Shown: piece by piece, positions 52,503 through 57,227 of the stretch
Numbering within the stretch: the first letter of the stretch is position 1
Layout of the letters: every line of letters begins with the position of its first letter
NCBI RefSeq assembly: GCF_009914755.1
Contig: NC_060925.1
DNA: 64,000 nt
Strand: one strand, 5' to 3'
From: the human T2T-CHM13v2.0 reference genome, Homo sapiens
Made by a program: the position numbers and the translations under genes
The notes under the pieces: model-generated
The model's input: the letters and a program-made list of their open reading frames with translations, nothing else
Told to the model about the DNA's origin: nothing
Databases searched by the model: none

Positions 52503-53510
52503 TGCAGGCGGCAAGCCACCCAGGCACCGAGGCAAGAGACCAAGGACACGAGCTGTTCCAGTATAATAAAATATAAAACAAGAATAGTTATACCAGATAT
52601 AGATCTTAGATATGATCATATATGAATATCATTAATCATTAGTTGGCAGTAATTACTCTTTATCCCAATATTATAATAATCCTCACTCTACAATCATAAC
52701 CTAGGAAAAGCCAGGCCATACAGAGATAGGAGCTGAGGGGACATAGTGAGGTGTGACCAGAAGACAAGAGTGCGAGCCTTCTGTTATGCCCAGACAGGGC
52801 CACCAGAAGGGCTCCTTGGTCTAGCGGTGACGCCAGCGTCTGGGAAGACACCCGTTGCCAGGCAGACTGTGGTCTAGCGGTAGCGAAAAGTGTCAAGGAA
52901 CAACACCCGCTACTTAGCAGACCGGGAAAGGGAGTCTCCTTTTCCCCGGGGGAGTTTAGAGAAGACTCTGCTCCTCCATCTCTCGTGGAGGGCCTGACAT
53001 CAGTCAGGCTTGCCTGCAGTTATCCGGAGGCCTAACCGTCTCCCTGTGATGCTGTGCTTCAGTGGTCACACTCCTAGTCCGCCTTCGTGTTCCATCCTGT
53101 ACACCTGGCTCTGCCTTCTAGATAGCAGTAGTAAATTAGTGAAAGTACTAATAGTCTCTGATATGCAGAAATAATGGCGTAAGCTGTCTTTCTCTCTGTC
53201 TCCTCTCCCTCTCTGCCTCGGCTGGCAGGCAGGGAAGGGCCCCCTGTCCAGTGGACACGTGACTCACGTGACCTTACCTATCATTGGAGATGACTCACAC
53301 TCTTTACCCTGCCCCTTTTGCTTTGTATCTGATAAATAACAGTGCAGCCAGACATTCGGGGCCACTACCGGTCTCCACGCATTGGTGGTAGTGGTCCCCC
53401 GGGCCCAGCTGCCTTTTCTTTTATCTCTTTGTCTTGTGTCTTTATTTCTACACTCTCTAGTCGCGGCACACAGGGAGAGATCCACTGACCCTGTGGGGCT
53501 GGTCCCTACA
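52503..53510 (+). mobile_element. HERV-K LTR (LTR13-type, HML-4), 5' LTR, 1008 bp
   Basis: TG...CA termini (tgcaggcggcaagcc...ggtccctaca), matches recalled LTR13 consensus; followed by PBS and betaretroviral gag. Confidence 0.9.
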
Positions 53511-53512
53511 TC

Positions 53513-53531
53513 TGGCGATCTGACGTGGGGC
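53513..53531 (+). other. Degenerate tRNA-Lys primer binding site
   Basis: tggcgatctgacgtggggc, 2 nt after the LTR end; resembles TGGCGCCCAACGTGGGGC. Confidence 0.7.
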
Positions 53532-54399
53532 TCTCCCTCGCTGTGTGAAGTTGCACCCTGAGTGTGGGATCAGCAGAGGAGTTCAACGAGATATTCCTGA
53601 GGATTGCGGTCAATAAACTTGGTGGTAAGCTACAGCGCTCAGAGTATTCTGGGGACACCATGGGACAGGCCAGTACAAAGTACTCAGCTTATTTAAATTT
53701 TATAAAAACTCTTCTTAAAGAAGGAGGTGTTAAAGTTTCTACTGAAAAGTTAATTGAAGTATTTGAGGTTGTAGATCTTCTTTGCCCTTGGTTTCCGACT
53801 GAGGGAACTTTAGAACTTAAAGGTTGGGTTGAGATTGGCCAACAATTCAAAATTGCTCATAAGGGGGGACATTTTATCCCACCCACCATTTGGTCAATCT
53901 GGGCTTCAGTTCGCTTTGTCTTAGACTCCTTACAGACTCAGGAGGACAACATGGAGACTGATCCCTCTTTCCTCTCCTCTGAGGAGGTCGAGGAAGTTCT
54001 CAGTTCTTTTTAACCTGAGGATACTGCACAAATTGAGAACATAATTTCACAGGAGGACTTCCACTCTGACATGCCTGCGCCACCGCCACCTACGCCAGAG
54101 GCTACCACACCCCCGTTGTCGCTTTATGATGATCTTTTAACTGACCTAAATACACTTATTTCCCCAACCAGCAAAACTCAGTTGAAACATATCAACAGCC
54201 ATTGCAGCCAGACCCTCCTGTCTCTCCTCACTCTTTCAACGCTGCCGCCGTGCAAATAGCAGACGCGATCAGGCAGCCTGAAAACGAGTCTATAAATTAT
54301 GTTTCTATGTAGCCCGATACAGAGGCTCCGCTATCTGAACAGCCCAGAAAAGAGGCTTCCAATTCTCGGCCAGGTAATGAGGCCCTCAATCCTATTTCT

Positions 54400-54610
54400 C
54401 CTAATCGGACTCAGTTAGAGTCACAGACTACCTGGAAGCCTGGCTCCTTTCCTGCAAATCGGACTCAGAGTCACAGGCTCCCTGGAAGCCTGGTCCACTT
54501 CCTACAAATCAGACTCGGATAGAGTCACAGGCTCCTTTGAAGCCTGGATCCTTTCCTCCTACTCAGACTTGGCTAGAGTTACAGGCTCCCTTGAAGCCTG
54601 GTCTGCACTT
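54400..54610 (+). repeat. Four imperfect ~50-54 bp tandem repeats within the gag p15-like region
   Basis: Repeated unit ...agagtcacaggctcc(c/t)tg(g)aagcctgg...ttcct. Confidence 0.75.
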
Positions 54611-54818
54611 GCCGTGGCAGCCTGGTTTTCAGGCCCATGAAAGACCTGCTCAGCAGGTAATCTGGTCTCAACCTGGCTTTCAGTTTTTCAACTCTCCTTC
54701 TATTCAAAATTCTACCCCTTTTTCTGCTCCTGGTCCAGTCGCGACTGCTGTTGCCAATACTACCATTGCTGCTCATAAGCAACAAATTACATACATCCCT
54801 GAAGACGACACTCCGCTT

Positions 54819-56282
54819 ATGAGGGCTATAGTTCAGGCAAGGGAATATGGGGATCCCGAAGCCTGGCAATTTCCTGTAATTTTACAACCTCCAGTACCTG
54901 CCACCCCAACAGTACAAAATCACCCACAGCCTGTTGTTGATCCTGCCCAGCAGGCGGCTGACCCCGCAGCTCAACAGGATCAAGAGGCTGATAATCAAGC
55001 CCCTCAGCCCGAAACTCAGGCTGCTCAGGGAAATAATCAGCCTCCGCAATTGCCGGCTCCTGGGGCACAGCCAATACCTGGCATTCCCGCTGTTCAGGCG
55101 GTAGTTCAGCCTGACCCCATACATCCAGGTCAGGTTCAGCTACGCCCTGCTACTTGGGAAAGTTTTTCTTTTAAATTCCTCAAAGATTTTAAGGAATCAG
55201 TGAAACAATATGGCACCAACTCTCCTTTTGTCCGTTCCACATTAAAAGGCTTAGCAGAAGATAAACGTTTGGTGCCCTATGATTGGGAAATTTTAGCAAA
55301 ATCAGTCTTATCTAAATCCCAATATTTACAGTTCAGGACTTGGTGGGTTGATGCTGTCCAGGAACGCATTCATCTTAATCAGGGCTCCAATCCTCCTGTT
55401 AACGTTACAGCTGACCAGTTACTGGGAATGGGTCAATGGGCTGCAATCCGACACCAAACTATACTAAATGATGAGGTTGTTGAACAACTGCAAAAATGTT
55501 GCTTAGATGCTTGGGACAAAATTCAAGATGATGGTAAAGTATGCCCATCTTTCACAGCTGTCAGACAGGGACAACACGAACCCTACCCAGACTTCATTGC
55601 TCGTCTTCCAGACGCAGCAGAAAAGGCTATTCCTGATAGCCACGGCCAAAGACTTGTTGTAGAACTTATGGTTTATGAACAAGCAAATCCAGATTGTCAG
55701 GCGGCTATTCGCCCCGTCAAAGGCAAAATTCCACTTGGTGGTGATATACTCACCTCCTACGTTAAAGCCTGTGAAGGGGTGGGAGGAACTCTGCATACAG
55801 CAATGATTATGGCACAAGCTATGGCCTCTATTCTAATGCCTGGACAATTCTCTGGCCAATGCTTCCTATGCGGCCAGAAGGGACTTGCAAAAAGAAATTG
55901 CCCTCGGCGTGCAGGTCGCAGTCCTTTACATCACCAACAACAACAACAAAAAACTTTTCAGCAACAAGACGCCCCACCTTCTACTGTATGCCCACGATGC
56001 CAAAAGGGCTTTCACTGGGCATCTCAATGCCATTCCAGATTTGATATTGATGGCAATCCTTTACAGCCTTTTAAAAATCAGGGAAACGGGATGAGGGGCC
56101 GGCCCCAGGCCCCTTTAAACAATGGGGCATTCCTCAACTCTCAGCCCCTGGCGTCCAGCCAGACGGGAGCCTTCCCAGTTCAATCCATTCAACCTCCACC
56201 CCAATTCCCACTTCAGCGATGTAGGGACCAGCCCCACAAGGTCGATGGGTCTCTCCCCGTGTGCCGCGACGAGAGAGTATAG
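54819..56282 (+). CDS. Open Gag CA-NC reading frame (487 aa from first in-frame ATG), last ~20 aa from the antisense LTR
   Basis: Stop-free frame 54537-56282 in ORF track; first Met at 54819 in weak Kozak context; expression unknown. Confidence 0.35.
   Translation: MRAIVQAREYGDPEAWQFPVILQPPVPATPTVQNHPQPVVDPAQQAADPAAQQDQEADNQAPQPETQAAQGNNQPPQLPAPGAQPIPGIPAVQAVVQPDPIHPGQVQLRPATWESFSFKFLKDFKESVKQYGTNSPFVRSTLKGLAEDKRLVPYDWEILAKSVLSKSQYLQFRTWWVDAVQERIHLNQGSNPPVNVTADQLLGMGQWAAIRHQTILNDEVVEQLQKCCLDAWDKIQDDGKVCPSFTAVRQGQHEPYPDFIARLPDAAEKAIPDSHGQRLVVELMVYEQANPDCQAAIRPVKGKIPLGGDILTSYVKACEGVGGTLHTAMIMAQAMASILMPGQFSGQCFLCGQKGLAKRNCPRRAGRSPLHHQQQQQKTFQQQDAPPSTVCPRCQKGFHWASQCHSRFDIDGNPLQPFKNQGNGMRGRPQAPLNNGAFLNSQPLASSQTGAFPVQSIQPPPQFPLQRCRDQPHKVDGSLPVCRDERV
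56081..56087 (+). other. gag-pro -1 frameshift slippery site G GGA AAC
   Basis: In-frame CAG GGA AAC after the second zinc knuckle, followed by GC-rich sequence, as in betaretroviruses. Confidence 0.7.
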
Positions 56283-57227
56283 AAATAAAGACACAAGACA
56301 AAGAGATAAAAGAAACGGCAGCTGGGCCCGGGGGACCACTACCACCAATGCGTGGAGACCGGTAGTGGCCCCGAATGTCTGGCTGCGCTGTTATTTATTG
56401 GATACAAAGCAGAAGGGGCAGGGTAAAGAGTGTGAGTCATCTCCAATGATAGGTAAGGTCACGTGGGTCATGTGTCCACTGGACAGGGGGCCCTTCCCTG
56501 CCTGCCAGCCAAGGCAGAGAGGGAGAGGAGACAGAGAGAAAGACAGCTTACGCCATTATTTCTGCATATCAGAGACTATTAGTACTTTCACTAATTTACT
56601 ACTGCTATCTAGAAGGCAGAGCCAGGTGTACAGGATGGAACACGAAGGCGGACTAGGAGTGTGACCACTGAAGCACAGCATCACAGGGAGACGGTTAGGC
56701 CTCCGGATAACTGCAGGCAAGCCTGACTGATGTCAGGCCCTCCACGAGAGATGGAGGAGCAGAGTCTTCTCTAAACTCCCCCGGGGAAAAGGAGACTCCC
56801 TTTCCCGGTCTGCTAAGTAGCGGGTGTTGTTCCTTGACACTTTTCGCTACCGCTAGACCACGGTCCACCTGGCAATGGGCGTCTTCCCAGACACTGGCGT
56901 CACAGCTAGACCAAGGAGCCCTTTTGGTGGCCCTGTCTGGGTGTAACAGAAGGCTCGCACTCTTGTCTTCTGGTCACACCTCACTATGTCCCCTCAGCTC
57001 CTATCTCTGTATGGCCTGGCTTTTCCTAGGTTATGATTGTAGAGTGAGGATTATTATAATATTGGGATAAAGAGTAATTACTACCAACTAATGATTAATG
57101 ATATTCATATATGATCATATCTAAGATCTATATCTGGTATAACTATTCTTGTTTTATATTTTATTATACTGGAACAGCTCGTGTCCTCGGTCTCTTGCCT
57201 CGGCGCCTGGGTGGCTTGCCGCCCACA
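56220..57227 (-). mobile_element. Second LTR13-type LTR, 1008 bp, inverted relative to the first
   Basis: Reverse complement aligns without indels to 52503-53510, ~30 substitutions by manual count. Confidence 0.93.

What the first reader, a model, noticed from the sequence alone, without database searches (positions are those of the whole stretch)
52869..56861. 350-bp perfectly homogenised tract between the inverted LTRs: candidate invertible gag cassette
Seen (manual alignment, position p pairs with 109730-p): ~15 substitutions in 52503-52868, none in 52869-53218 (paired with 56861-56512), and ~15 in 53219-53510. Flanks differ by ~4-5% while a CpG-containing 350-bp core is identical, which is very unlikely under uniform divergence. 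Established: closely spaced inverted repeats undergo gene conversion and NAHR inversion. Inference: recent or recurrent exchange. A crossover would flip the 2.7-kb PBS-gag segment, leaving gag downstream of an inward-facing U3 in either orientation. LTR-divergence dating would underestimate the element's age.
Basis: partly seen in the sequence, partly recalled or inferred. Interest (0 to 1): 0.8.

Follow-up and report, generated by a model that had tools for sequence, protein, structure and literature searches.

The report
Gene-converted tract in inverted LTRs
A broken ancient retrovirus copy near ZP4 has its two end-repeats facing each other, and a 350-base stretch of them is identical, most likely because one was copied onto the other; that process is ordinary, but the way this copy was inserted is unusual.

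Summary
The two 1,008-bp LTRs (52503-53510 +, 56220-57227 -) align without gaps: 15 mismatches, then 0 in 350 bp, then 15. A run this long arose in 16 of 200,000 uniform permutations and 15 of 100,000 weighted by site variability.

The tract is not a slow-evolving region. 28 paralogous LTRs diverge equally there, and three other LTR pairs of the family carry 8, 9 and 13 substitutions in it. No third copy exceeds 97% identity to it.

Arm-to-arm gene conversion is the best reading (about 0.7). One prediction fails weakly: the tract holds 8 shared derived sites where about 15 were expected. Flipping of the gag segment is geometrically possible but untestable from one haplotype, and gag is already broken.

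The inverted arrangement appears to be original. A second locus on chr12 has the same LTR-PBS-gag-inverted-LTR layout with a perfect 6-bp direct target duplication at its two U3 ends. Both loci join gag to an unprocessed U5 end (CA+TC), 60-130 nt past the gag/pro frameshift signal. Each therefore looks like an aberrant viral DNA integrated as one unit through two U3 ends.

The parts
52497..52502 (+). Left copy of the 6-bp target-site duplication (AAATTC), directly outside the U3 end of the left LTR.
   Evidence: It matches 5 of 6 with the hexamer after the right arm. The 8 bp before TGTGGG differ among the 28 solo LTRs, so the hexamer is not part of the LTR.
52503..53510 (+). Left LTR (U3-R-U5), 1008 bp, running from TG to CA. 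Its AATAAA lies near 53333.
   Evidence: 38 other genomic copies match query positions 5-1008 at 92-95%. The ends read TGTGGG...CCTACA in the paralogues.
52869..53218 (+). Homogenised tract, left-arm copy: 350 bp with 11 CpG and no mismatch to the right arm.
53461..53624 (+). Annotated exon of LOC100130331, made of U5, PBS and leader. The acceptor AG at 53459-53460 exists only in the left arm. The donor G|GTAAG lies at 53624/53625.
   Evidence: Hub annotation and the sequence. Position 53459 is A in the left arm, C in the right arm and in 25 of 28 paralogues.
53511..53531 (+). The TC dinucleotide after the U5 CA, followed by a 19-nt primer-binding-site-like sequence (TGGCG...GTGGGGC).
   Evidence: The chr12 element has the same layout. 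The Lys-type reading of the PBS is recalled, not tested.
53660..56217 (+). gag, defective. It has an ATG at 53660, in-frame stops ending at 54013 and 54259, and a frame change before 54405. It contains matrix (Gag_p10), four 54-nt tandem repeats at 54417-54628, capsid N and C domains, and a zinc knuckle. It is colinear with canonical proviruses up to 56217.
   Evidence: ORFs; Pfam E-values 3e-24, 1e-38, 2e-20, 2e-15; repeats; colinearity.
56081..56129 (+). gag/pro -1 ribosomal frameshift signal: G GGA AAC in the gag frame plus a GC-rich stem.
   Evidence: Rfam RF01097 scores 50.9 bits against a gathering score of 43, E = 5e-7.
56218..56219 (-). Junction dinucleotide. It reads GA on the + strand, which is TC after the U5 CA of the inverted LTR, so this is an unprocessed U5 terminus. 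It is not gag sequence, because canonical copies read AA here.
   Evidence: The chr12 junction has the same GA.
56220..57227 (-). Right LTR, inverted, 1008 bp, with U5 inward and U3 outward.
56512..56861 (-). Homogenised tract, right-arm copy.
57228..57233 (+). Right copy of the target-site duplication (AAATTT).

Best explanation
The locus is a defective betaretrovirus-like (HERV-K supergroup) element with the layout LTR> - PBS - gag - <LTR. The two LTRs were identical, or nearly so, when the element entered the genome. They have since diverged by about 4.5%, roughly 2.4% per arm. A double-strand break or gap in the U3 part of one arm was repaired using the other arm, 2.7 kb away in inverted orientation, as template. 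This is non-allelic, arm-to-arm gene conversion, either a non-crossover or a tract accompanying a crossover. It erased about 16 differences over at most 350 bp. With zero differences now, the last such event falls within roughly the last fifth of the arms' divergence time (3.0/15.9 = 0.19, 95% bound). Shown: the tract, its significance, that the region is not intrinsically slow, and that no third copy is a donor. Inferred: the repair mechanism, its direction and its timing. The inverted layout itself is inferred to be original. An aberrant viral DNA, with an unprocessed U5 end joined to gag just past the gag/pro frameshift signal, was integrated as one unit through two U3 ends.
For: (1) There are 0 mismatches in 350 bp between flanks of 15/366 and 15/294. 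The permutation P is 16/200,000 (uniform) and 15/100,000 (weighted). (2) The tract is not a cold region. Mean pairwise divergence among 28 paralogues is 6.4%, 6.2% and 6.5% in left flank, tract and right flank. The three other LTR pairs examined have 8 (chr12), 9 (chr19) and 13 (chr16) substitutions in the tract-equivalent region. (3) In the flanks the arms are sister lineages (support 0.979) with equal branches, 0.0238 and 0.0239. Derived states split evenly, 16 in the left arm and 14 in the right. The paralogues that share a minority allele differ from site to site, and 11 of 30 alleles are seen in no paralogue. This fits independent decay after a common origin. (4) No external donor appeared: the best third copy is 97% identical to the tract, with 40 of 587 candidates scored. 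(5) CpG retention in the tract, 8 of 10 family CpGs, fits a single-lineage history; the paralogue mean is 66%. (6) Tract size fits published LTR conversion tracts, whose maxima range from 14 to 450 bp (PMC4921805, passages). For the layout: chr12 has the same architecture with a perfect direct 6-bp duplication, TCAAAT, at its two U3 ends inside an Alu tail. The chr1 flanks match 5 of 6. 18 of 28 solo LTRs have perfect 6-bp duplications. Both junctions carry GA, that is CA+TC.
Against: A single recent unbiased conversion should leave the donor arm's own accumulated changes in both arms. The expectation is about 15.4 shared departures from the commonest paralogue state (7.4 background plus 8 donor). 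8 were seen, giving Poisson P = 0.03, or 0.06-0.10 if the expectation is 13-14. In the tree the pair's stem in the tract is 0.0116, against 0.0153 in the flanks and about 0.039 predicted. The tract therefore looks as if neither arm had changed. Measured against single paralogue lineages the deficit is weaker: 8 versus a mean of 12.7 (sd 2.6), and 3 of 28 paralogues have 8 or fewer. No orthologues, no second human haplotype and no reads were available. The decisive tree-incongruence test and an assembly check were therefore not done. The chr1 duplication hexamer is its own reverse complement apart from one base, so at chr1 alone a direct duplication cannot be told from a 6-bp extension of the inverted repeat. 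Only chr12 settles that point.
Confidence: 0.7

Rival explanations
1. Recurrent NAHR inversion. Crossovers within the arms repeatedly flip the 2.7-kb PBS-gag spacer, and the identical tract is the footprint of those exchanges. Both orientations would then exist among humans or apes.
For: The arms are inverted, 1 kb long and 2.7 kb apart, and now share 350 bp of perfect identity. Inverted repeats do mediate recurrent human inversions whose breakpoints lie in the most identical stretch, for example a 782-bp 99.9% block (PMC3961182, passages).
Against: There is no observation of a second orientation. A crossover leaves no mark in a single haplotype, and a non-crossover conversion explains the tract equally well. 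The RefSeq transcript uses an exon (53461-53624) that exists only in the present orientation, with its acceptor in the left arm. At least that cDNA source therefore had the CHM13 orientation; this is an inference from the hub annotation. The locus was not found in the two inversion papers searched (0 hits for 1q43, LTR or ZP4). Their supplements and the bioRxiv catalogue tables were not seen.
Confidence: 0.1
2. Local protection instead of exchange. Both copies of the tract simply did not change, because of purifying selection on a regulatory element or a locally low mutation rate such as a germline-unmethylated U3.
For: The tract carries no more shared derived sites than the flanks: 8/350 against 8/366 and 6/294. 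Its stem is no longer than the flank stem, 0.0116 against 0.0153. 8 of 10 family CpGs are kept.
Against: About 16 differences are expected and none is seen. About 9 of these would be non-CpG changes, which hypomethylation cannot prevent. The same region is among the most changed in the other three LTR pairs, with 8, 9 and 13 substitutions, and evolves at 6.2% among solo LTRs. No RefSeq functional element is annotated there (hub table). Absolute conservation of two 350-bp copies with sharp edges beside 4-5% flanks is not how constraint usually looks.
Confidence: 0.08
3. Mosaic at time zero. The two LTRs were made from two different templates, for example co-packaged genomes, during the aberrant reverse transcription. 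The flanks differed from the start and the tract came from a shared template.
For: The element did arise by a non-standard route. The usual guarantee that the two LTRs are identical at integration is therefore weaker here.
Against: Minority alleles at the 30 mismatch sites are scattered over different paralogues and do not mark a sub-lineage. 11 of the 30 occur in no paralogue, and most of the rest are CpG transitions. The two arm branches are equal. Even at the lower per-LTR rates of the other pairs, 5-10 differences would have accumulated in the tract since integration. Exchange would therefore still be needed.
Confidence: 0.05
4. Chance or mutational clustering. Mismatches pile up in CpG-rich patches and the gap between them is a fluke.
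For: Mismatches are clumped, with 10 in 52787-52868 and 7 in 53451-53491. 13 of the 30 sit at family CpG sites.
Against: Permutations weighted by the observed per-site variability still give 15 of 100,000. The tract holds 34% of the mutational weight and 10 family CpGs.
Confidence: 0.02
5. Assembly or polishing artefact that homogenised two near-identical repeats.
For: Nothing from my calls supports this. It is listed because reads could not be inspected.
Against: The whole structure is 4.7 kb and the flanks are unique in the genome. Long reads would therefore span it; this is an inference. The tract edges coincide with ordinary substitutions, not with indels or low-complexity sequence.
Confidence: 0.03

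Closest known systems
Non-allelic gene conversion between HERV LTRs (Trombetta et al. 2016, PMC4921805: abstract start and passages seen. Johnson & Coffin 1999 and Kijima & Innan 2010 are recalled only.)
   Same: A short tract, at most 350 bp here and 14-450 bp at maximum in the paper, is exchanged between highly similar LTRs. This distorts LTR-based dating.
   Different: Here the partners are the two LTRs of one element in inverted orientation, 2.7 kb apart. The published clusters were ectopic, between different loci. The expected excess of transferred derived sites is not seen.
Arm-to-arm conversion in Y-chromosome palindromes (Rozen 2003 and Hallast 2013; seen only as entries in the reference list of PMC4921805; their content is recalled)
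   Same: Inverted arms with a short spacer are kept identical by intrachromosomal conversion. By the title of Hallast 2013 this conversion is GC-biased and accompanied by rare inversions. A bias towards restoring C/G at decayed CpGs would explain why the tract looks unchanged.
   Different: The arms are 1 kb, not tens to hundreds of kb. Only a third of each arm is homogenised, and the flanks have diverged 4-5%. No bias could be measured here.
Inverted-repeat-mediated recurrent human inversions (Aguado et al. 2014, PMC3961182, passages seen)
   Same: An inverted repeat pair with a block of near-perfect identity is the substrate, and breakpoints fall in such blocks.
   Different: By the passage seen, that paper counted inverted repeats of at least 1 kb and at least 97% identity as highly identical. 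This pair sits at that lower limit. No second orientation is known for this locus.
Canonical provirus and known aberrant retroviral DNA forms, namely autointegration 'inversion' circles and 2-LTR circles (recalled textbook knowledge; no paper in the library searches described an integrated example)
   Same: An autointegration inversion product also has gag joined to the U5 end of an inverted LTR. 2-LTR circle junctions also keep the two extra bases beyond CA.
   Different: Autointegration uses a processed CA end, whereas both junctions here keep CA+TC. Circles are not integrated, whereas these elements sit in the chromosome with a normal 6-bp duplication at two U3 ends. Canonical proviruses of the same family (chr16, chr19) have direct LTRs about 9.3 kb apart.

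Membership tests
LTR-LTR non-allelic gene conversion | A run of identity longer than the flanking divergence allows (a GENECONV-type test). | tested here: met
   A 350-bp run with 30 mismatches in 1010 sites gives 16/200,000 (uniform) and 15/100,000 (weighted).
LTR-LTR non-allelic gene conversion | The region is not intrinsically slow-evolving. | tested here: met
   Divergence among 28 paralogues is 6.2% in the tract against 6.4% and 6.5% in the flanks. Three other LTR pairs carry 8, 9 and 13 substitutions there.
LTR-LTR non-allelic gene conversion | Derived variants of the donor are now shared by both copies, giving an excess of shared derived sites in the tract. | tested here: not met
   8 shared departures were seen against about 15.4 expected, P = 0.03. 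The tract stem is 0.0116 against about 0.039 predicted. The test is weak: 3 of 28 single paralogue lineages are equally low.
LTR-LTR non-allelic gene conversion | Paralogues cluster within species in the tract, and orthologues cluster in the flanks. | not testable with these tools
   No ape genome is held. Only the window's own genome could be searched.
NAHR-mediated invertible segment | Flanking repeats are in inverted orientation and share a long stretch of perfect identity. | tested here: met
   The arms are 1016 nt, 97% complementary and 2705 nt apart, with 350 bp identical.
NAHR-mediated invertible segment | Both orientations are observed in a population or between species. | not testable with these tools
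   Only a single haplotype was available. The locus was not found in the inversion papers searched.
Canonical provirus | Two LTRs are in direct orientation, with the target duplication at the U3 end of one and the U5 end of the other. | tested here: not met
   The LTRs are inverted and the duplication lies at two U3 ends. Family controls on chr16 and chr19 are canonical.
Betaretrovirus-like class II ERV (HERV-K supergroup) | Gag has a p10 matrix, p24 capsid and CCHC knuckle. There is a gag/pro -1 frameshift signal, and target duplications are 5-6 bp. | tested here: met
   Pfam finds Gag_p10, Gag_p24, Gag_p24_C and zf-CCHC_5. Rfam RF01097 matches. 18 of 28 solo LTRs have perfect 6-bp duplications.
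HERV-K(HML-4) / HERVK13-LTR13 | Sequence identity to the group's reference LTR or pol. | not tested
   No repeat library or reference was on hand. The name is only a recalled guess. It is consistent with a family of few proviruses (HML4: 7 canonical and 5 non-canonical chains; PMC4724089 table) and many solo LTRs (609 candidates).
Autointegration product | The LTR end is joined to internal viral DNA through the processed CA, so the terminal 2 bp are lost. | tested here: not met
   Both junctions, chr1 and chr12, keep the 2 bp (GA on the gag strand) that canonical gag lacks.

The most novel reading that the evidence does not exclude
This ERV family produced palindrome-ended DNAs (LTR-PBS-gag-inverted LTR) at least twice independently. 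The cause would be a specific replication error: an unprocessed U5 end joined or template-switched onto gag 60-130 nt past the gag/pro frameshift structure. Integrase then inserted these DNAs through two U3 ends. This would be a class of defective provirus that my searches did not find described. Once in the genome, the inverted LTR pair behaves like a miniature palindrome. Repeated arm-to-arm conversion biased towards restoring the original bases keeps part of U3 'frozen', and an occasional crossover flips the spacer, switching a lncRNA exon on or off.
Probability: 0.3. Interest if true: 0.65.

Novelty: new variant of a known kind. Interest (0 to 1): 0.45.

Why it matters
The tract alone is a clean worked example of why whole-LTR divergence misdates an element, 3.0% against 4.5% here. 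That is useful but not new.

More interesting is the layout. Two loci preserve direct genomic fossils of a viral DNA that was mis-made before integration and was then inserted by integrase using two U3 ends, with a normal 6-bp duplication. If a genome-wide census finds more such units, they would give a natural record of reverse-transcription and integration errors in extinct retroviruses. They would also give a set of dated small palindromes in which conversion bias and inversion rates can be measured across primates.

The locus also shows exonisation by a single arm-specific substitution. A C-to-A change at 53459 makes the acceptor of a LOC100130331 exon, so orientation and arm identity matter for a host transcript.

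Tried and rejected
1. External donor for the tract. The own-genome search with the 350 bp found nothing above 97% besides the two arms, with 40 of 587 candidates scored. Rejected, within that limit.

2. Post-integration inversion of a normal provirus. This needs breakpoints exactly at the LTR ends, twice, and would leave env/pol sequence outside the right arm. None was found: 0 Pfam families in 3 of 3 ORFs right of the arm. 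chr12 also has a direct duplication at its two U3 ends. Rejected.

3. Nested second insertion into gag. This would give a processed CA joint and different flanks. Rejected.

4. Inverted duplication that includes 6 bp of flank. This cannot be excluded at chr1 because the hexamer is nearly its own reverse complement. It is excluded at chr12, where TCAAAT is direct.

5. Microhomology at the junctions. A PBS-like 9/10 match near the chr1 junction turned out to be canonical gag sequence. No convincing microhomology was found at either junction, so the joining chemistry stays open.

6. Empty-site test for chr1. Both 300-bp flanks are unique in the genome, so no paralogous unfilled site exists.

7. 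Two short leader hits, chr1:3.3 Mb and chr4:77.0 Mb. They are a deletion variant, with one LTR each in the 4.2 kb fetched, not inverted-LTR units.

'2 of 4' therefore refers only to the elements at 93% identity or more.

9. Naming the family. No reference was available. The published 1q43 HERV-K loci are other elements: HML-7 at 242.46 Mb on the + strand, 3.4 kb, and HML-2 at 238.93 Mb on the - strand, 2.2 kb. The main locus table of PMC4724089 is an .xls file that cannot be read here.

11. Literature searches for inverted-LTR integrated retroviruses returned only DIRS elements, vector papers and unrelated work. This is not proof that none is in print.

Full report
**Observation.** The repeat finder reports one inverted repeat in 51000-58500. 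Its arms are 52497-53512 and 56218-57233: 1016 nt, ungapped, 97% complementary, with 2705 nt between them. A base-by-base count gives 31 mismatches:
- 16 in 52497-52868, of which 15 lie inside the LTR;
- none in 52869-53218;
- 15 in 53219-53512.

Beyond the arms the pairing is random, at 27-42 mismatches per 50 positions. Divergence is 4.1%, 0% and 5.1%, and the tract holds 11 CpG in each arm. The longest identical run reached 350 in only 16 of 200,000 uniform permutations. It did so in 15 of 100,000 permutations in which each site was weighted by its variability among 28 paralogous LTRs.

**Is the tract merely a slow region? No.**
- The window's own genome holds many copies of this LTR: 609 candidates, of which 40 were scored. 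38 of the 40 are other loci, at 92-95% identity.
- Among the 28 copies I aligned, mean pairwise divergence is 6.4%, 6.2% and 6.5% in left flank, tract and right flank.
- Three other LTR pairs of the family carry 8 (chr12), 9 (chr19) and 13 (chr16) substitutions in the tract-equivalent region. Their longest identical runs (243, 227 and 152 bp) give P = 0.25, 0.03 and 0.50.
- No third genomic copy is more than 97% identical to the tract, with 40 of 587 candidates scored. The identity is therefore specific to the two arms.

**What the element is.**
- The LTR proper is 52503-53510 on the + strand and 56220-57227 on the - strand. It is 1008 bp and runs TG...CA. Paralogues match query positions 5-1008 and read TGTGGG...CCTACA.
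- After the left LTR come TC, a 19-nt PBS-like sequence, a leader with a G|GTAAG donor, and gag from the ATG at 53660.
- Pfam finds Gag_p10, Gag_p24, Gag_p24_C and zf-CCHC_5.
- Rfam finds the gag/pro frameshift element RF01097 at 56081-56129, with G GGA AAC in the gag frame.
- gag is defective. It has in-frame stops ending at 54013 and 54259, and the frame changes before 54405.
- This is a betaretrovirus-like class II ERV. I guess HML-4/LTR13 from memory but could not test it. PMC4724089 lists HML4 as a small group of 7 canonical and 5 non-canonical chains.

**The inverted layout is original, not a rearrangement.**
- gag is colinear with canonical proviruses on chr19 and chr16 up to 56217. The window then reads GA followed by the reverse complement of the LTR, where the canonical copies continue AATTTG.
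- That GA is the complement of the TC that follows the U5 CA. The inverted LTR is therefore joined through a complete, unprocessed U5 terminus.
- A second locus on chr12 has the same layout. Its junction lies 69 bp earlier in gag and again reads GA plus the reverse-complemented LTR.
- The two outer ends of the chr12 element are both U3 ends. They are flanked by a perfect direct 6-bp duplication, TCAAAT, inside the tail of an Alu.
- The chr1 element has AAATTC and AAATTT at the corresponding places, a 5-of-6 match.
- In the family, 18 of 28 solo LTRs have perfect 6-bp duplications and 21 of 28 match at 5 of 6 or better. The chr16 provirus has AGAGGG at both ends.
- An inversion of a normal provirus, a nested insertion and an autointegration joint each fail on the extra two bases, on the flanks, or on both.

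I infer that a mis-made viral DNA was integrated as one unit through two U3 ends. In that DNA an LTR with an unprocessed U5 end was joined, or template-switched, onto gag 60-130 nt past the frameshift structure. This happened independently at chr1 and chr12. These are 2 of the 4 elements that match the window's leader-gag at 93% or more. The joining chemistry is open, because I found no convincing microhomology. Three literature searches found no description of such integrated units, which does not show that none exists.

**How the tract most likely arose.** In the flanks the two arms are sister lineages (support 0.979) with equal branches of 0.0238 and 0.0239. Derived states are split 16 to 14 between the arms. 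The paralogues sharing a minority allele differ from site to site, and 11 of 30 alleles occur in no paralogue. This is the pattern of two copies decaying independently from one origin, largely at CpG sites. Against that background the tract should hold about 16 differences. Homologous repair of one arm from the other, that is arm-to-arm gene conversion with or without a crossover, is the established process that erases differences over a few hundred bases. Published LTR conversion tracts have maxima of 14-450 bp (PMC4921805). With zero differences, the last event lies within about the last fifth of the arms' divergence time (3.0/15.9).

**A result that does not fit neatly.** One recent, unbiased conversion should have copied the donor's own accumulated changes into both arms.
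- From the flanks I expected about 15.4 shared departures from the commonest paralogue state. 8 are seen, which is the same density as in the flanks (8/350 against 8/366 and 6/294). P is 0.03, or 0.06-0.10 under lower expectations.
- The tract stem in the tree is 0.0116, against about 0.039 predicted.
- Against single paralogue lineages the deficit is weaker: 8 against 12.7 +/- 2.6, and 3 of 28 lineages are as low.
- CpG retention, 8 of 10, is compatible with a single lineage.

The deficit may be chance. It may instead mean repeated conversion biased towards restoring C/G at decayed CpGs, as is reported for Y palindromes (recalled). I could not separate these, and I give protection without exchange a probability of 0.08.

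**Inversion.** Both LTRs point inward, so a flip reproduces the same structure on the other strand. The 350-bp identical block is a plausible substrate (compare PMC3961182). Nothing in one haplotype can show a past crossover.

One indirect datum concerns the annotated LOC100130331 exon 53461-53624. It needs the acceptor AG created by a left-arm-private C-to-A change at 53459; the right arm and 25 of 28 paralogues have C. It also needs the leader donor on the + strand. The cDNA source therefore had the CHM13 orientation. I put real inversion, polymorphic or between species, at about 0.1.

**Limits.** No ape orthologues, no other human haplotypes and no reads were available. Only 28 to 40 of about 600 LTR copies were examined. 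Seven related loci could not be fetched. Family naming and some mechanistic background are recalled, not tested.

**Verdict.** Conversion is likely, and an invertible cassette is unproven. The tract itself is an ordinary kind of event. The unit-integrated inverted-LTR architecture, seen twice, is the more unusual result.

Noticed in passing
L043+L046 (G000:C12:56459000-56473500), element at about C12:56464235-56469393 on the - strand: A second LTR-PBS-gag-inverted-LTR element. It has a perfect direct 6-bp duplication (TCAAAT) at its two U3 ends, inside an Alu tail. Its junction lies 69 bp earlier in gag, with the same GA dinucleotide. Its arms differ by 15 substitutions and one 6-bp indel (1.5%).
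   Followed up: yes
window 53459-53461 and 53624-53625: The acceptor AG of the annotated LOC100130331 exon is created by a left-arm-private C-to-A change at 53459. The right arm and 25 of 28 paralogues have C. The exon ends at the retroviral leader donor G|GTAAG.
   Followed up: partly
window 56081-56129: A gag/pro -1 frameshift element (Rfam RF01097, 50.9 bits) with G GGA AAC in frame. The chr1 and chr12 gag-to-LTR junctions both lie 60-130 nt downstream of it, which may mark a hot spot.
   Followed up: partly
window 54417-54628: Four tandem 54-nt repeats lie inside gag, at 67-100% identity to the reference copy. The chr12 element gives more offset BLAST matches there, so its repeat number seems larger.
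   Followed up: no
L051 (G000:C1:3315300-3319500) and L052 (G000:C4:77012300-77016500): Two related elements share an internal deletion. Homology stops at window-equivalent 53715 and resumes near 54390-54440. This suggests a deletion variant that spread, or a recurrent breakpoint.
   Followed up: partly
L044+L047 (G000:C19:22017000-22033000): The canonical provirus pair on chr19 has a 227-bp substitution-free run between its direct LTRs (permutation P = 0.03). This is a possible weaker conversion tract.
   Followed up: no
window 52787-52868 and 53451-53491: Mismatches between the arms are clumped, with 10 in 82 bp right at the left edge of the tract and 7 in 41 bp near the inner end. They are mostly CpG transitions. 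The chr1 flanks (4.5%) are 2-4 times as diverged as the flank-equivalent regions of the other three LTR pairs (1.1-2.6%).
   Followed up: partly
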